Source: a virus (lineage: Duplodnaviria; Heunggongvirae; Uroviricota; Caudoviricetes). From it: 41,210 bases of DNA. Position numbers and translations under genes: made by a program. The notes under the pieces were generated by a model. The model saw only the letters and a program-made list of their open reading frames with translations, did no database searches and was not told the origin of the DNA. The first letter of the stretch is position 1. Every line of letters starts with the position of its first letter. Shown here in pieces: positions 15,125-21,948 of the stretch. Where the stretch lies: the IMG/VR virus record IMGVR_UViG_2880406838_000008. One strand, written 5' to 3'.

Positions 15125-15841
15125 TTATCCGCCCGCACCATTAACCGTTACCGTACACGCATCAGAGGTAATGCTCTGCGGCTGTTCTGCAGAATCCGTT
15201 ACCATGCAGGTATAAGCCCCCTTATCACCTGACTGCGCATTGGCTTTACTGAAAGTGTCAGTAGTCTGTCCCTCGACCGGCTGACCATCCTTCTTCCAGG
15301 CGTATTTATAAGGCGGCGTTCCCCCGTTGACACTGACTGACATTGTCAGCAGCGCACCTGTATTCACGGTAAGTGTCTTCTCCGGATTTTTCACAAACGC
15401 CAGCGGTACCACATAGGACACCGGTTTACCCTTCAGGCGAAGTGAAAACGTTGCAGCCACCACGCCGTTGGTACCGGATGACCAGGTGTGCTGACGCACT
15501 TCCGCCAGGAACTTAAAGCCCTTACCGGACGGAAACTGCACCTTAAACGCATACACCGTGTCATTGTCATAGGCATCACGCAGGGCGTTCTGGGCCTGAT
15601 TCAGATAAAAATTACCCGACATGGAAATCTCGGACGACGCCCCCAGACCGTTGATGTTCTCCTGCTCTGTGGAGCAGAGCGTGGTCACATCAATATCCTG
15701 TTTCTGACCGGCGGTGAACTGGACTTCCTTGATGGTGCAGTCCAGGCGCAGATATTCCGCCTTATCCATAGTTTCAGCAGTCGCCGGGGCAGATGAAATC
15801 ATCACCTGCGTCAGCTGTGAGCGTTCATACAAAGCAGACAT
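15125..15841 (-). CDS. V: major tail protein V
   Basis: Start at internal ATG 15841 with AGGAGG RBS (MSALYERSQ...); about 238 aa with an Ig-like C-terminal extension; immediately upstream of G. Confidence 0.85.
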   Translation of the reverse strand: MSALYERSQLTQVMISSAPATAETMDKAEYLRLDCTIKEVQFTAGQKQDIDVTTLCSTEQENINGLGASSEISMSGNFYLNQAQNALRDAYDNDTVYAFKVQFPSGKGFKFLAEVRQHTWSSGTNGVVAATFSLRLKGKPVSYVVPLAFVKNPEKTLTVNTGALLTMSVSVNGGTPPYKYAWKKDGQPVEGQTTDTFSKANAQSGDKGAYTCMVTDSAEQPQSITSDACTVTVNGAGG

Positions 15842-15909
15842 TCTGCCTCCTGATAATAAAAAAACCCGCACGCGGCGGGGTATGGGTTTTGTAGAAAAAA
15901 AAGAAAAAG

Positions 15910-16254
15910 TCACACCGTGACCTGAAACTCCAGGGTTGCACGGTAACAGCGGTTTTCCGGAATATAGTCCTGCATTTCACTGACGGATCCCGGGGCCAGC
16001 AGCATTATGGCTTCACGGGCGTCCTGACGTATCTGACGCGCCTGCGTCACAGTCCCGGCATAAACGTCTATCTGCACCGACACTGAGGACTCCGCCTGCC
16101 CGCCCATCACGTCCGCAGACACCGATGAAATCAGGCTGAAAACCACCCACGGAAGCGCCACCGACGGCCTGCCATCCAGCAGGGGGACCACATACGGGTA
16201 CACCTGCCCGCCGGCAAGATGCGCCAGATAAGGATACAAATCCGCCTCCGTCAT
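15910..16254 (-). CDS. U: tail terminator protein (gpU-like)
   Basis: 114 aa; ATGA start/stop overlap with the upstream gene; position immediately before V. Confidence 0.6.
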   Translation of the reverse strand: MTEADLYPYLAHLAGGQVYPYVVPLLDGRPSVALPWVVFSLISSVSADVMGGQAESSVSVQIDVYAGTVTQARQIRQDAREAIMLLAPGSVSEMQDYIPENRCYRATLEFQVTV

Positions 16255-17053: not shown

Positions 17054-17380
17054 TCATAACACCGTCGGACAACGCAAATCGTAAATCAGCACGGACACAG
17101 AAAACGGCAGTTCCCCCTGCACGAGGTCTTCCCGCTCAGCAAGATCCGGATTCCGGTACAGCATCCCGGTCAGTCGCATGGCAGCCCCCTTCATCCGGGT
17201 TAATGCCTCGCCCGGGATCAGCTCACCGTCCTCACGAATCACCTTATCCCGGCTGCCCTGAATGTAGGCCAGCAGCACGGCGGTAGCCTGACGAACCTTG
17301 TCCATCAGCATGTCATCATCCGCGTCATGGTCGACACGCAGATGTGCCTTGATCTCTTCCAGTGTCAGTAATGCCGTCAT
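17054..17380 (-). CDS. head-tail connector protein (gp6-like)
   Basis: 108 aa; N-terminal LTLEEIKAHLRVDHDADDDML is typical of gp6-like connector proteins. Confidence 0.6.
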   Translation of the reverse strand: MTALLTLEEIKAHLRVDHDADDDMLMDKVRQATAVLLAYIQGSRDKVIREDGELIPGEALTRMKGAAMRLTGMLYRNPDLAEREDLVQGELPFSVSVLIYDLRCPTVL

Positions 17381-18438
17381 TTTCCGCCTCCTGCATCCCG
17401 TCCACGTTTGGCAGCCAGGGTCCAGCCTGATGAATGAGCTTCTCCGGGTTTATCACCGGTCATACTGTTGCAGTGCCACAGCGAGCCCCCCCACGTCACC
17501 GTATCACCGGGGTGGTAGGTTTCACCGGCTCTGAACACACCGCGGTAGAGCATCACCGGCAGGGAAAATGTTTTTTCCGTACGCTGGCCACTGCTCTGCC
17601 GGACCACCACAGTGAACGACCGTTCGCCGGTCATGCTGACGTCAATATCGGCCACCCCGTCAACCAGGCATTCCCATCCCCGCATCCCGTGCGTTTTTTC
17701 ATACGCCCGCCAGAGTCCGCCCTGGTGTGTGGCATACGTGCCCCGGGGAAAGGATTTTTGATCGTCAATGGCGGGGATTATTTCCAGTGCCGTGGCATCA
17801 CGCCCGTCCTGCGGAGCCGGCAGGGCTCTCACCGCATCCAGAACAGCCTTCTGCAGAACATCGGGATCATAGTCACGACCATCACGCGGAACAGGAATAT
17901 GGCTTACCGCCTCTTTCACCATCTGTTCAAGCATCGGACGCACATCATCGGGGGTAATACTTTTGCCGTCCGCCGGTACCGGAATATTCGCAACCGCATC
18001 ATTCACCGCCTGCTTCAGTACTTCCGGATCATAATCACGACCGTCACGCGGAGCAGGGATATGGCTTACAGCCTCTTTCACCATCTGCTCAAGCATCGGA
18101 CGCACATCATCGGGGGTGATACTTTTGCCGTCCGCCGGTACCGGAATATTCGCAACCGCATCATTCACCGCCTGCTGCAGTACATCCGGATCATAATCAC
18201 GACCATCACGCGGTACCGGAATGGTCCCCACAGCGTCATCCACCATCGCCTGCAGAACCGGATGTACCTCATCCACCGTCACATGCTTCTGTAATACCGC
18301 CGACAGGGAAGCCAGTTTCTCTTCAAACGCTTGTGCCTGCGCGGCCATCTTCCCCTCAAATGTGCGCTGTAAATCCGCCAGCACCGTGGAGAATTCTTCG
18401 CCCAGTGCACGAATAATGGACAGTTCCCGTTCCGTCAT
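17377..18438 (-). CDS. structural protein of unknown function with tandem 54-aa repeats (possible head decoration protein)
   Basis: 353 aa; N-terminal coiled coil, about three near-identical 54-aa repeats (IPVPADGKSITPDDVRPMLEQMVKEAVSHIPAPRDGRDYDPEVLKQAVNDAVAN), beta-rich C-terminal domain; overlaps the portal stop. Confidence 0.5.
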   Translation of the reverse strand: MTERELSIIRALGEEFSTVLADLQRTFEGKMAAQAQAFEEKLASLSAVLQKHVTVDEVHPVLQAMVDDAVGTIPVPRDGRDYDPDVLQQAVNDAVANIPVPADGKSITPDDVRPMLEQMVKEAVSHIPAPRDGRDYDPEVLKQAVNDAVANIPVPADGKSITPDDVRPMLEQMVKEAVSHIPVPRDGRDYDPDVLQKAVLDAVRALPAPQDGRDATALEIIPAIDDQKSFPRGTYATHQGGLWRAYEKTHGMRGWECLVDGVADIDVSMTGERSFTVVVRQSSGQRTEKTFSLPVMLYRGVFRAGETYHPGDTVTWGGSLWHCNSMTGDKPGEAHSSGWTLAAKRGRDAGGGK

Positions 18439-19799
18439 TTTCTCAGTATCCCCCTGAACATCGCTTTCACTGCATCATGCTCTGTTTCACTGATTGCCTT
18501 ATTACCGTCAGATGCGCCGTCAGGCAGTTGTGCTGAAACTGTTTTCCCGGCCGACGCGAACGGGTCCTCACGGGCATCACGACGGGACAGCGCCTCCAGA
18601 CTGTAGTTCTGCTGCTGAAGATACAGTGCATCACCGCCGGCAAGGGGCGGCAGGTTCTCACGTTTACGGGCCTCATTGGGCGTGAGAAGCGTATTTTTCA
18701 CCGATTCACCCAGTGTTTTCATGCGCCGTTCGCTGTCCATTCTCAGCAGCGTGGTGACGTCAAACTCCGTGCTCTCGTTTTCCCCCGTTTCCAGCGCCTC
18801 ATCCAGTAACAGCTCAATGGACTCAATCAGCGTCTGCAGACACTGGGAATAATACTGCTGCTCCAGCGCCTCCACGTTGTCACTGGAAGGCGGGTGGCCA
18901 ACGCCAATCTTGTAGGCCAGGACACGGAACACCGAACAGACAATTTCAGCGGTCATCTTCAGTTGTTCCACCGTCTGCGCATCCACCGGTGAAAACGTCG
19001 TGGGGTTGTATTTTGCCCCGTTGCTCAGAATGGCCGTTTTCCCCGCATTTTCGCCGGTATACCCGCTGTCCCAGTTGCTCTTCAGTTTTTTCGCATTTTC
19101 TTCCGTAATACTGCCGGGGATCTCAATCACCCCGGACGGCCTGCCGCCATTTCTGAAAAAAGACGTCGAATTTTCCTGAATATGATGCCCCTGCGTGGCC
19201 GCCAGCCCGGCAGCATACACCGGCGGCAGCCCCACAAGCGGATGAAAAAAACAGTTAAACCGGTCGTGGATCACTTCCCTGGCAGGCACCGTCACCGCCT
19301 CCGTGATCCCGCAGTTCCGGTCCGGTGTAATGCGATAGAACACCTCGCCGTCATCCGCCACCAGAGGTTCAACCCGGCTCCAGTCCAGAATACGCAGTTC
19401 TTTGATCTGCCCCCGGGCATTACGGATTTTCAGCACCACCGTATTGCCATGACGCAGTTTGGCGTTCAGCCACAGTTCAAAAAACTGGATGCGGTTCTGC
19501 TGGGCGTTGGGACGACGACAGAGGCGGGCAATATCCCCCCGGCGCGTTTCCCTGCGTATCCCATGCGCATCCGTCTGCATAAGACGCAGCCGCATTTTGG
19601 CGATATCCTGGGATATCAGCGAAATACATGCAAACACCGCATGAAAGGAGAGGACGGCTTCAGGATCGGCTTTCACGCCCTGCTGCCAGGCGCCGGAAAA
19701 GGGCTCAGCCACCGCCTGAAACAGGCTGGTCCAGCCCGCCTCTCTTACGTCACGTCCTGATTTCTGGTTTTTTCGGGTTCGCCGTAAAAGGTTCCACAT
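18435..19799 (-). CDS. portal protein (HK97-family)
   Basis: 454 aa; motif blocks FFRNGGRPSGVIEIPGSITEENAKKLKSNWDSGYTGENAGKTAILSNGAKY and TPNEARKRENLPPLAGGDALYLQQQNY recalled as portal-family signatures. Confidence 0.8.
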   Translation of the reverse strand: MWNLLRRTRKNQKSGRDVREAGWTSLFQAVAEPFSGAWQQGVKADPEAVLSFHAVFACISLISQDIAKMRLRLMQTDAHGIRRETRRGDIARLCRRPNAQQNRIQFFELWLNAKLRHGNTVVLKIRNARGQIKELRILDWSRVEPLVADDGEVFYRITPDRNCGITEAVTVPAREVIHDRFNCFFHPLVGLPPVYAAGLAATQGHHIQENSTSFFRNGGRPSGVIEIPGSITEENAKKLKSNWDSGYTGENAGKTAILSNGAKYNPTTFSPVDAQTVEQLKMTAEIVCSVFRVLAYKIGVGHPPSSDNVEALEQQYYSQCLQTLIESIELLLDEALETGENESTEFDVTTLLRMDSERRMKTLGESVKNTLLTPNEARKRENLPPLAGGDALYLQQQNYSLEALSRRDAREDPFASAGKTVSAQLPDGASDGNKAISETEHDAVKAMFRGILRK

Positions 19800-19966
19800 T
19801 CGCCATGCTCCGCATCACGTTTCTTTTTCTGACCTGCCGGACGTCGCACCGTGATGTACTCCGCCTTCCCCAGGCGAACCAGCACCTCCGCACACGGCTG
19901 TGCCACATCACGGATATCCCCGGCCCGGGCATCATGCGTGCCCTGCAGATATCGGATCTTTGCCAT
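19745..19966 (-). CDS. small hypothetical protein between capsid and portal genes
   Basis: 73-aa ORF with ATG at 19966; its 3' end overlaps the annotated portal start, so the true extent is uncertain. Confidence 0.3.
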   Translation of the reverse strand: MAKIRYLQGTHDARAGDIRDVAQPCAEVLVRLGKAEYITVRRPAGQKKKRDAEHGECGTFYGEPEKTRNQDVT

Positions 19967-20010: not shown

Positions 20011-21948
20011 TCAGCCGCCGGACGCACTGCCGTAGTTCACTCCGGTGATCACCGCCACCGCCGCGGTACGGCGACGACGCCAGTTGATCCAGCGCTCCGC
20101 ACGGATGGCCACGCTGCCTGTCTGGAACATGGAAACCAGCTCCACCGGGGACGGCGTGGTACTGTCGCCGGTCGGCTCAGACTGCATTTCCAGTGATGCT
20201 TCACGGGACATATCCACTGCCACGCCGCCGTCATCCGCCAGATAAATATCCGGGGCATTCACCAGCACCAGCTGGTCACCCACGTACTGGGAGACAATCA
20301 CCGGCAGCCCCTGGAAGGAGCCACCCAGCAGGGTCATGTCCGGGTATTCCTTCTGACCCAGCGCATTTTTACGCATGGACAGTGCCAGGGCATTGGTGCT
20401 GGACATCAGCCAGACCGCACCGGTGGGCTGCAGGTTTGCTGCCACAAACTGTCCAAACGCAGCCTCTGCATCCGCATCCGGGTTACCGGTTGATGCCGTG
20501 CCCTTCACATCATGGGTGATGGACGCCGGGGAGACATCTGCCACTGCGGCTTTTTTCGGGTCCACAAAGTCTGTATCCAGACGCGCCACCACCGCTTCCG
20601 CCAGCGCATTACGGACCAGTGCATCAGCAGCCGGACTGGAAAAACGGATCAATTCTTCCGTCAGTACCGCAATGGCCGACACTTTCGCATGACTGAAGGT
20701 GATGGATTCAAAATCAAACTTCGTCAGGGGTCTGGCCTTACCCTCACCCACCCAGCCGGCAGCACCGCCGGACACCTGGGCGTGCACACGGATATTGAAC
20801 GGCACCTGACGAAGTGCAGGGATCCCGCCCTGACCAAATCGCCCGATAATGGTCTGCGGACGCAGGTAATCAATAAAGTCCTGTGCGTATTCCTGATATT
20901 CAGACAGGCTGCCTGCCCACTGCGGATCCGTGGTGGTCCCCGCGCCCACTGCCGATTTCAGGACATGATGCAGACAACTGTCATCCGGATACTGACGACG
21001 GGCCACTTCCAGGGCTTCAGATCGGACGCCTTTAGCCGCAGCCAGCGATTTGGCAAAGCGGGCGAAGCCAATCCCCTTATCCAGTTTCTGCTCCACACGG
21101 ATCACCGGCGCAGAAGCCACCGCGGCCACATTCCCGTTACCGGCCTGTTTCACCGGCTGCGCCGTGGCGGCCTTACCGGCTTCCAGTTCACGCAGGCGCT
21201 TCAGGTGCGCATCCACCTGACGGATTTCCGCTGCGGTGTTGTCGTAGTGCTCTTCCTCCTCCACATCCAGCGTGCGCCCTTCCTCTGCGGCTTTGGTCAT
21301 GACCTCCTCAAGGGAGGCTGCCAGCGCTGCACGCTTGTTTTCAAAACTTTTAATCTGTTCGCCAATATTCATTATGGTCTTTTCCTTATGAAAAACGGTT
21401 GTTGACTGTGCCGCAGCGCCGGCAGAAGATGCGATTTTCACCACCGGTTTCCGGTTGCCGGACGCGGCAGAAAACGGGCGGTCGTAAGATTTAATGGTCC
21501 GGATGGTGCATTCCGCATTCGCGGGCACGGTGACGGCAGACACCTCCATCAGTTCCCAGCGCAGAAAATGCAGTCCGCCTCCGTCCAGAAAGGTGTATTC
21601 ATGGGGACGGAAGCCCACGGACAGCCCCCTGACCAGCCCGGTCTTAATGGCCGCCCAGACCTCATCCAGCCGGGCAGCCAGTTGCGACGGCATATCCGGT
21701 ACGGGCTTCACCAGTGTTGCCGTGATTTCCAGCCCTTCGCTGACCCGGCGTACCGTACACTGCCCCACCGGGCGGGAATGGTCATGCTGCCAGAGAAACG
21801 GGATCGCACTGCCAAACTCCGCGCCCTCCGGCTCCAGGATGTCACCATCCCGATCCGGAGAAGGCGTTGACGCAATCCCGGTGATCACCCGTTCATCCTC
21901 ACTGAAGGATTTCACCGTCAGCAGGGAACAGGCCCGTTTAAGAGTCAC
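20011..21948 (-). CDS. prohead protease - scaffold (delta) - major capsid protein fusion ORF, HK97-like
   Basis: 645 aa in one frame. N-terminus has protease motifs (ITGIASTPSPDRDGDILEPEGAEF, WQHDHSRPVGQ, GLSVGF); the middle is a charged coiled-coil segment; the C-terminal about 300 aa look like an HK97-fold capsid. Internal ATG at 21372 is preceded by an AAGGAAAAG RBS; AGGAGG RBS before the ATG at 21948. Confidence 0.75.
   Translation of the reverse strand: MTLKRACSLLTVKSFSEDERVITGIASTPSPDRDGDILEPEGAEFGSAIPFLWQHDHSRPVGQCTVRRVSEGLEITATLVKPVPDMPSQLAARLDEVWAAIKTGLVRGLSVGFRPHEYTFLDGGGLHFLRWELMEVSAVTVPANAECTIRTIKSYDRPFSAASGNRKPVVKIASSAGAAAQSTTVFHKEKTIMNIGEQIKSFENKRAALAASLEEVMTKAAEEGRTLDVEEEEHYDNTAAEIRQVDAHLKRLRELEAGKAATAQPVKQAGNGNVAAVASAPVIRVEQKLDKGIGFARFAKSLAAAKGVRSEALEVARRQYPDDSCLHHVLKSAVGAGTTTDPQWAGSLSEYQEYAQDFIDYLRPQTIIGRFGQGGIPALRQVPFNIRVHAQVSGGAAGWVGEGKARPLTKFDFESITFSHAKVSAIAVLTEELIRFSSPAADALVRNALAEAVVARLDTDFVDPKKAAVADVSPASITHDVKGTASTGNPDADAEAAFGQFVAANLQPTGAVWLMSSTNALALSMRKNALGQKEYPDMTLLGGSFQGLPVIVSQYVGDQLVLVNAPDIYLADDGGVAVDMSREASLEMQSEPTGDSTTPSPVELVSMFQTGSVAIRAERWINWRRRRTAAVAVITGVNYGSASGG

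What the first reader, a model, noticed from the sequence alone, without database searches (positions are those of the whole stretch)
17770..18230. Near-perfect 162-bp tandem repeats inside a head-module structural gene
The 353-aa protein encoded just after the portal contains about three tandem copies of a 54-aa unit, itself built from two related 27-aa halves (IPVPADG.../IPAPRDGRDYDP...). The copies are nearly identical at the DNA level, so copy number is likely to vary by slippage or recombination. Such repeats in a virion-associated protein suggest a surface-exposed decoration or adhesion-like role, but the family is unrecognised.
Basis: seen in the sequence. Interest (0 to 1): 0.5.

Follow-up and report, generated by a model that had tools for sequence, protein, structure and literature searches.

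The report
Portal-coupled head protein with variable repeats
The repeats are real and their number varies between related prophages; they form the stalk of an uncharacterised fibre-like protein that always sits next to the portal gene in this type of phage head module, and that databases mislabel as a broken portal gene.

Summary
On the minus strand, ORF 17377-18438 (353 aa) carries two full 162-bp units that are 93.8% identical, plus partial units. Each 54-aa unit is a 25-aa half and a 29-aa half. Copy number varies among E. coli relatives in 54-aa steps, giving proteins of 245, 353, 407, 461 and 569 aa.

The ORF is a separate gene whose start overlaps the portal stop (ATGA). This split layout is the norm: 72 of 73 loci from different bacterial species have it. 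The gene follows the portal in 53 of 55 usable viral contigs with a related portal.

In about a third of E. coli copies a G5-to-G6 change fuses it in frame to the portal. RefSeq therefore calls the window's arrangement a "frameshifted portal pseudogene", which is probably wrong. Both forms show purifying selection.

The architecture is an N-terminal coiled coil, a variable acidic stalk (collagen-like in 24 of 150 relatives) and a conserved C-terminal beta domain containing a CBM5/12-like fold.

Function is untested. Repeated independent fusions to the portal C-terminus point to a fibre anchored at the portal, probably inside the capsid. An external neck fibre remains a serious rival. Interest is moderate.

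The parts
18435..19799 (-). Portal gene (454 aa)
   Evidence: PF04860 Phage_portal, E 3.5e-79, covering aa 54-382. The ORF is listed.
18450..18454 (-). G5 homopolymer in the last codons of the portal (AGG GGG). G6 in relatives fuses the portal and the downstream ORF in frame.
   Evidence: Sequence. The survey of 81 E. coli-type copies (window included) found 54 G5 and 27 G6, with three identical 60-nt junction haplotypes present in both states. Fused proteins read ...AMFRGDTEKMTERELS.
18435..18438 (-). ATGA overlap of the portal stop (TGA) and the start (ATG) of the repeat protein
   Evidence: Overlapping or abutting start and stop codons are the rule in the 72 split loci of other species.
17377..18438 (-). 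Gene for the 353-aa portal-coupled repeat protein (the finding)
   Evidence: ORF. phrog_1289 E 7e-179 and phrog_2271 E 7.5e-244. pN/pS is 0.40 for the N-terminus and 0.20 for the C-terminal domain.
18283..18438 (-). N-terminal 52 aa: one long amphipathic helix with a 3-4 hydrophobic spacing (coiled-coil type)
   Evidence: AlphaFold2 helix 3-50 with pLDDT 85-96. The heptad pattern was read from the sequence.
18223..18282 (-). Partial B-type half unit (aa 53-72, VTVDEVHPVLQAMVDDAVGT)
   Evidence: Sequence comparison with the B units.
18061..18222 (-). Full 162-bp unit 1 (A1 aa 73-97 plus B1 aa 98-126)
17899..18060 (-). Full 162-bp unit 2 (A2 aa 127-151 plus B2 aa 152-180), 93.8% identical to unit 1
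17824..17898 (-). Third A half unit (aa 181-205), 75% identical to A1 at DNA level
17767..17823 (-). Degenerate A' unit and linker (aa 206-224, LPAPQDGRDATALEIIPAIDD)
   Evidence: G212, D214, A215, P222 and I224 are invariant or nearly invariant in the family.
17404..17766 (-). Conserved C-terminal beta domain (aa 225-345). Its last ~50 aa have a CBM5/12-like fold.
17486..17492 (-). Second homopolymer, G7 (TGG GGG GGC, the W-G-G of GDTVTWGGSLWHC). G6 variants truncate the C-terminal domain.
   Evidence: G7 in 71 matched copies and G6 in 2 (L073, L081). L002 and L083 have the same truncated ending.
17054..17380 (-). Downstream gp6-like head-tail connector gene, with a 4-nt overlap
   Evidence: PF05135, E 7.8e-8. 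Synteny is conserved.
20011..21948 (-). Prohead protease fused to the major capsid protein (645 aa), upstream member of the same conserved module
   Evidence: PF04586 and PF05065. Synteny.

Best explanation
SHOWN.
- The 353-aa ORF is an intact, separately encoded gene, probably translationally coupled to the portal gene through the ATGA overlap.
- It is the near-constant neighbour of one portal subfamily, in the module protease-MCP fusion, small ORF, portal, this gene, gp6-like connector.
- It has three parts. The first is a ~50-aa N-terminal coiled-coil helix. The second is an acidic stalk of alternating 25-aa and 29-aa helix-plus-PxPxDG-loop units. The third is a conserved C-terminal beta domain with a CBM5/12-like sub-fold.
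- The stalk gains and loses whole 162-bp (54-aa, in-frame) units.
- One extra G in a G5 tract 13 nt before the portal stop fuses the gene in frame to the portal.

INFERRED.
- Unit number changes by unequal homologous recombination or slippage between the 94%-identical copies. Many near-identical prophage copies per genome would help this.
- The protein is a trimeric, segmented fibre. Relatives replace or extend the stalk with true collagen G-X-Y runs.
- Its N-terminal helix docks on the C-terminal end of the portal, the crown side, which faces the capsid interior. The stalk is then a length-tolerant spacer, and the C-terminal domain acts as the folding and registration knob or binds another conserved head component.
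- On this reading the split and fused forms are two ways of making the same portal-attached structure.
For: Separate gene is the norm:
- 72 of 73 loci from different species of Gamma-, Beta- and Alphaproteobacteria are split, with start-stop overlaps of several kinds and in both frame offsets.
- The Stx1-converting phage BP-4795 (454 + 461 aa), Salmonella phage FSL SP-016, Rhizobium phage RHph_X2_26 and Pseudomonas phage PAJU2 are all split.

Obligate partner of this portal type:
- 53 of 55 usable viral contigs whose portal is 45-68% identical carry the gene directly after the portal.

Functional coding:
- pN/pS is 0.20 for the C-terminal domain and 0.40 for the N-terminus, the same in the G5 and G6 classes.

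Copy-number variation:
- E. coli alleles are 245, 353, 407, 461 and 569 aa.
- Serratia protein P0122 has three nearly identical 54-aa units of its own sequence type, indicating an independent expansion.
- Units 1 and 2 share a 58-bp exact run.
- Genomes that have a match hold a median of 4 matching places, up to 22.

Portal association:
- Independent in-frame fusions to the portal C-terminus exist in at least three lineages. These are E. coli G6 (including phage 2851, 859 aa), a Pantoea-type group (P0243, L118, L239 and L241, 1150-1248 aa, diverged from each other but with an intact C-terminal domain) and L238.

Fibre nature:
- 24 of 150 cluster representatives have at least 8 G-X-Y triplets, up to 41. 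L228 has a much longer run.
- AlphaFold2 gives a confident N-terminal helix and C-terminal domain.
- The stalk is acidic, pI 4.4.
Against: - No experiment places the protein in or on a virion. Literature searches found nothing on it.
- All fold neighbours of the C-terminal domain are outward-facing: chitin-binding modules, tail fibres of Agrobacterium phages 7-7-1 and Milano, and collagen-like phage fibre proteins.
- A collagen rod of tens of nanometres, as implied by L228, fits awkwardly inside a ~55-nm head.
- The fused E. coli alleles could be tolerated loss-of-function states rather than working proteins, because G5/G6 switching and recombination could hide decay.
- Trimerisation and portal docking were not modelled. 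Only monomer prediction was available, and the stalk has pLDDT 52-78.
Confidence: 0.42

Rival explanations
1. An external fibre at the neck or on the head. This covers a fibritin-like whisker or collar, or the decoration or adhesin the first reader proposed. The N-terminal coiled coil would anchor it to the portal clip or the connector, the repeats would form the shaft, and the CBM5/12-like knob would contact a surface glycan.
For: - Fold neighbours are external fibres and carbohydrate-binding modules.
- Collagen-like segments occur in 24 of 150 relatives.
- The gene lies between the portal and the gp6-like connector.
- The plan of N-terminal anchor, segmented helical shaft and C-terminal knob parallels T4 fibritin (my knowledge).
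Against: - Evolutionarily stable in-frame fusions to the portal C-terminus occur in at least three lineages. In all solved portals I know of, that end faces the capsid interior.
- The supposed ligand-binding knob is the most conserved part of the protein across phages of Alpha-, Beta- and Gammaproteobacteria. This is the opposite of what receptor-binding tips usually show.
- The Pfam CBM_5_12 score is below the cut-off.
Confidence: 0.27
2. An assembly-only factor. It would be tethered to the portal inside the prohead, for example to recruit the portal into the shell built by the protease-delta-MCP fusion. The prohead protease would then remove it, so it would be absent from mature virions.
For: - It is an obligate companion of the unusual protease-MCP fusion plus portal module.
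- It is helical, acidic and tolerant of length change, like scaffolding proteins.
- It tolerates fusion to the inward-facing portal end.
- In P22, T7 and SPP1 the gene after the portal is a scaffold or a minor head protein (my knowledge).
Against: - The capsid protein already carries its own N-terminal coiled-coil (delta-like) segment.
- Collagen-like rods and a tightly conserved beta knob are not features of known scaffolds.
- No cleavage data exist.
Confidence: 0.15
3. The RefSeq reading. The real gene is one long portal gene, and the window copy is a frameshifted pseudogene in a decaying prophage.
For: - PGAP annotates the identical sequence, and a shorter allele, as 'phage portal protein, frameshifted'.
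- Many fused proteins are deposited.
- Phage 2851 has the fused form.
Against: - The split form is the state in 72 of 73 species-level loci and in isolated phages.
- G5 is the commoner and more diverse state in E. coli: 54 copies in 15 junction haplotypes against 27 copies in 4.
- The start codon overlaps the stop as in the distant relatives.
- pN/pS is 0.2-0.4.
Confidence: 0.06
4. A programmed -1 ribosomal frameshift on the G run. It would make both the 454-aa portal and a portal-extension fusion from the G5 allele.
For: A -1 slip of the tRNA-Gly on GGG within AGGGGGA would give exactly the protein sequence of the G6 fusions.
Against: - There is no canonical X XXY YYZ heptamer.
- The 85 nt downstream fold no better than shuffles (z = -0.91).
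- The G run is absent in most other genera, and the frame offset differs among relatives.
- The -1 frame is open for only 12 codons upstream of the ATG.
Confidence: 0.04

Closest known systems
T4 fibritin (wac), the neck whisker fibre
   Same: The plan is the same: an N-terminal attachment region, a shaft of short helical segments separated by loops, and a small C-terminal domain that probably registers the chains. The number of segments varies among relatives.
   Different: There is no sequence or fold match. Fibritin is external and is never fused to the portal. Here the loops are PxPxDG motifs and the C-terminal domain is a ~120-aa beta domain, not a foldon.
C-terminal helical barrel of the P22-type portal
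   Same: It is a helical, coiled-coil-type extension at the inward-facing C-terminal end of a portal. In the fused alleles this protein is literally a portal C-terminal extension.
   Different: The portal here is HK97-type (PF04860). The extension is normally a separate polypeptide. It carries repeats and a beta knob, and its length varies from about 245 to more than 800 aa. There is no homology.
SPP1 gp7 / Mu gpF minor head proteins
   Same: The gene sits immediately after the portal, and the product is thought to bind the portal inside the head. I recall portal fusions being described for that family too (my memory, not tested here).
   Different: There is no PF04233 match and the architecture is entirely different.
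CBM5/12 chitin-binding modules
Collagen-like phage fibre proteins and the tail fibres of Agrobacterium phages 7-7-1 and Milano
   Same: They are the best Foldseek neighbours. Relatives of this protein contain true collagen runs.
   Different: The matches are weak (TM about 0.1-0.2, E 8e-4 at best). Those proteins are tail components encoded in tail modules, whereas this one is encoded in the head module next to the portal.

Membership tests
Phage portal protein (Pfam PF04860), the name databases give this ORF | A match to the portal domain model | tested here: not met
   The 353-aa protein has no PF04860 hit. The complete domain (profile positions 2-321 of 321) lies in the upstream 454-aa ORF. 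Standalone homologues named 'phage portal protein' by NCBI carry no portal domain.
PHROG families 1289 and 2271 | A significant match to the family profile | tested here: met
   phrog_1289 E 7.4e-179 over aa 1-353, and phrog_2271 (859-position fused form) E 7.5e-244. The label 'portal protein' comes from the fused members.
CBM5/12 carbohydrate-binding module | Sequence score at or above Pfam's gathering cut-off | tested here: not met
   21.1 bits against a cut-off of 26.2, aa 303-325. Relatives score 21.9-24.7 bits.
CBM5/12 carbohydrate-binding module | The fold of the module | tested here: met
CBM5/12 carbohydrate-binding module | Binding of chitin or another glycan through exposed aromatic residues | not testable with these tools
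   W243, W255, W321, W339, Y230 and Y308 are nearly invariant. Whether they are exposed, and whether they bind anything, was not determined.
Collagen-like trimeric fibre | Runs of G-X-Y triplets | tested here: not met
   The window protein has none. 24 of 150 family representatives have 8-41 triplets, and L228 has a much longer run. The feature therefore belongs to the family, not to this member.
Programmed -1 ribosomal frameshift site | A slippery heptamer, a downstream stimulatory structure and conservation among relatives | tested here: not met
   Only a G5 run is present. The downstream fold has z = -0.91. The run and the frame offset are not conserved.
Homopolymer contingency (phase-variable) locus | Both tract lengths present on otherwise identical backgrounds in natural populations | tested here: met
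   Three identical 60-nt junction haplotypes occur with both G5 and G6.
Homopolymer contingency (phase-variable) locus | A high switching rate within a lineage | not testable with these tools
   A 5-6 nt tract is short for a classical contingency locus. The rate cannot be estimated from assemblies.
SPP1 gp7 / Mu gpF minor head protein (PF04233) | A match to the family model | tested here: not met
   No hit at E <= 1.

The most novel reading that the evidence does not exclude
HK97-type siphophages of this module may carry a previously undescribed internal structure. It would be a set of trimeric, variable-length fibres hanging from the portal crown into the DNA-filled head, a separately encoded counterpart of the P22 portal barrel. 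These fibres could be attached non-covalently or, after a single-base change, covalently.
Probability: 0.3. Interest if true: 0.7.

Novelty: new variant of a known kind. Interest (0 to 1): 0.45.

Why it matters
1. Annotation. RefSeq marks the normal two-gene arrangement as a frameshifted portal pseudogene and names standalone homologues 'phage portal protein'. This touches over a thousand complete E. coli genomes and many other species. It can make intact prophages, including Shiga-toxin-converting ones, look defective.

2. Biology. A protein present in nearly every member of a widespread head module, found in phages of Alpha-, Beta- and Gammaproteobacteria, has no known role. Repeated portal fusions give a concrete, testable hypothesis about where it sits.

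3. Practical use. The 162-bp array and the two G tracts are polymorphic markers among otherwise near-identical prophages. Many deposited fused proteins come from contigs of only 1.6-6 kb, so this prophage region is often fragmented in draft assemblies.

Tried and rejected
- Programmed frameshift: rejected. There is no heptamer, no downstream structure and no conservation.
- Pseudogene: rejected on population, comparative and selection evidence.
- Pfam, NCBIfam and a PDB sequence profile gave nothing beyond a sub-threshold CBM5/12 hit and noise from helical repeats.
- The AFDB50 fold library was not available.
- A first attempt to scan genomes with the 72-sequence alignment failed for lack of a conserved stretch. 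A smaller alignment worked.
- Literature searches for portal frameshifts, Pankowvirus, phage 2851, PAJU2 and the O157 prophage pool gave no functional or proteomic data on this protein.
- The phi330 paper reports virion mass spectrometry, but neither its text nor its supplement mentions the portal or this protein; the peptide maps shown are for the short-tailed phages. The phi330 record also has extra frame breaks in this region, so it was not used as evidence.

Full report
THE OBSERVATION

The window is the late region of a lambdoid E. coli prophage, read on the minus strand. Its order is terminase, a 645-aa prohead-protease/capsid fusion, a 73-aa ORF, the portal, the ORF in question, a gp6-like head-tail connector, and then tail genes. 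The ORF region is 100% identical to E. coli E2855 (NZ_AP018796.1) and to an O111:H8 strain.

Tandem Repeats Finder gives a 162-bp period at 17846-18222, with 2.3 copies and 91% matches. In the 353-aa product of 17377-18438 the unit is 54 aa. It consists of a 25-aa A half (IPVPRDGRDYDPDVLQQAVNDAVAN) and a 29-aa B half (IPVPADGKSITPDDVRPMLEQMVKEAVSH). The layout is partial-B, A1 B1, A2 B2, A3, A'.

The two full units differ at 10 of 162 positions, six of them synonymous, and share a 58-bp exact run. Nothing else on the strand exceeds 43% identity to unit 1. The small corrections are that the halves are 25 and 29 aa, and that only two copies are near-perfect.

COPY NUMBER

E. coli genome hits of 738, 1062 and 1223 bp already show steps of 162 bp. 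Among 80 IMG/VR contigs plus annotated records, the protein is 245 aa (A a), 353 aa (ABABAa), 405-407 aa, 461 aa or 569 aa.

Serratia protein P0122 carries three almost identical 54-aa units of its own sequence type. Arrays thus expand independently in different lineages. Among the genomes that have a match, the median is 4 matching places and the maximum 22, which gives ample partners for recombination. The mechanism itself, unequal recombination or slippage, is inferred.

WHAT THE GENE IS

RefSeq annotates portal plus this ORF as one 'phage portal protein, frameshifted'. Many deposited proteins are in-frame fusions reading ...AMFRGDTEKMTERELS. The window reads ...AMFRGILRK-stop, with the ATG of the next ORF overlapping the TGA. 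The only difference is a G5 tract (18450-18454) in place of G6.

In 81 E. coli-type copies (window included), G5 occurs 54 times in 15 junction haplotypes and G6 occurs 27 times in 4. Three identical haplotypes occur in both states. Both states occur at each common copy number and in named phage genome records. BP-4795 and Lys8385Vzw are split, and phage 2851 is fused at 859 aa.

Outside E. coli the answer is clear. Of 73 loci from different species of Gamma-, Beta- and Alphaproteobacteria, 72 are split. They show ATGA, TGATG or longer overlaps, in either frame offset, and no conserved slippery site. The split form is therefore ancestral and normal, and the pseudogene label is very probably an artefact of using fused proteins as references.

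A programmed -1 frameshift is not supported. Both allele classes are under purifying selection, with pN/pS 0.20 in the C-terminal domain and 0.40 in the N-terminus.

THE FAMILY

A search of 1.84 billion cluster representatives finds 5,683 relatives at E <= 1e-3 and 652 at E <= 1e-30. Among the 150 best, lengths have quartiles of about 300, 390 and 480 aa, and only one is fused to a portal. There is no Pfam or NCBIfam model.

Synteny is conserved throughout: protease-MCP fusion, portal, this gene, connector. Scanning viral contigs with a portal profile, 53 of 55 usable loci whose portal is 45-68% identical have the gene directly downstream. It is a core member of this head module, not an accessory.

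ARCHITECTURE

AlphaFold2 with a 72-sequence alignment gives mean pLDDT 80.
- Residues 3-50 form a confident helix. Its hydrophobic residues follow a 3-4 spacing.
- The repeats appear as short helices joined by PxPxDG loops, with low confidence (pLDDT 52-78).
- Residues 225-345 form a very confident beta domain (pLDDT 93-98).

The stalk is acidic (pI 4.4, net charge -14) and the C-terminal domain is near neutral.

In 24 of 150 relatives the stalk contains 8-41 G-X-Y triplets. One relative (L228) has a much longer collagen run, about 70 triplets by eye. The family is therefore best seen as a trimeric segmented fibre. Trimerisation is inferred, not modelled.

WHERE IT ACTS

This is inference. Three observations point to the portal C-terminus:
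- The gene is adjacent to the portal, and the overlapping start and stop codons are consistent with coupled translation.
- It co-occurs almost without exception with this portal type.
- It has fused in frame to the portal C-terminus independently in at least three lineages. One of these, the Pantoea-type group, has diverged considerably while keeping the C-terminal domain intact.

In every portal structure I know of, the C-terminus lies in the crown, inside the capsid. The extreme C-terminus of these portals also ends in a short motif shared by several relatives (AMFRGILRK, AMIRGFLTK, AMLKGMLNHE; other relatives end differently), directly before the N-terminal helix of this protein. In addition, the C-terminal knob is the most conserved part of the protein across very different hosts, unlike receptor-binding tips.

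My best reading, at confidence about 0.4, is a portal-anchored fibre on the inner side of the portal vertex. The stalk would be a length-tolerant spacer.

The main rival, at about 0.27, is an external neck fibre of the fibritin kind. Its support comes from the fold neighbours and from the long collagen rods, which would fit poorly inside a head. An assembly-only role in the prohead, at about 0.15, also fits the fusions. No paper in the library reports this protein in a virion proteome or structure.

VERDICT

The repeat and its variability are real. The protein is a genuine, conserved but uncharacterised and misnamed component of a widespread head module. It toggles between free and portal-fused forms by a one-base change. 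It is a new variant of known kinds, namely phage fibres and portal extensions. Its function and location remain to be shown.

Noticed in passing
window 17486-17492 (minus strand): A second homopolymer, G7, lies inside the CBM-like motif (GDTVTWGGSLWHC). Copies with G6 (L073, L081), and L002 and L083 with the same ending, terminate early as ...VTWGARCGTATV and lose the end of the conserved domain. This could be sequencing error, decay or a second switch.
   Followed up: partly
window 19745-19966 (minus strand): A 73-aa ORF lies between the capsid gene and the portal and overlaps the portal start. It is conserved in enterobacterial relatives (tblastn hits), has no Pfam match, and is annotated only as hypothetical.
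   Followed up: partly
L228 (IMG/VR contig IMGVR_UViG_643348564_000004), 4507-7074: This homologue of the repeat protein has a long uninterrupted collagen G-X-Y run (about 70 triplets by eye) between the repeats and the conserved C-terminal domain. It also has repeated beta-hairpin inserts (GVG.A.ALIDRSG.LV.TL.NGE...). P0264 has 41 triplets.
   Followed up: partly
L118, L239 and L241, and protein P0243: These Pantoea-type relatives are 1150-1248-aa natural portal fusions. Their stalk uses a different repeat (LPxPEPLPDI plus a helix, more than 20 copies), and a Met aligned with the start of the separate gene is still present inside the fused ORF.
   Followed up: partly
window 2385-3704 (minus strand), repeat at 2663-2753: A side tail fibre gene (phage_tail_N, Collagen and Phage_fiber_C domains) has its own 45-bp and 9-bp collagen-coding tandem repeats.
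   Followed up: no
window 35632-37911 (minus strand), repeats at 36278-36384: A 759-aa ORF with a C-terminal Rv2179c-like 3'-5' exoribonuclease domain contains a run of degenerate 21-bp tandem repeats.
   Followed up: no
window 30991-31074: A 23-bp unit is repeated 3.7 times at 70% identity. It overlaps an ORF at 30688-31470 and was not examined.
   Followed up: no
window 28124-29974 (minus strand): A 616-aa ORF combines DUF1737, a sialate-type carbohydrate esterase (SASA) domain and DUF6645. In the matching E. coli E2855 locus (L001), the DUF6645 gene at the corresponding position upstream of the lysis genes is annotated as frameshifted.
   Followed up: no
window 15125-15913 (minus strand): The major tail tube protein carries a C-terminal immunoglobulin-like domain (Ig_2 / I-set hits).
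   Followed up: no
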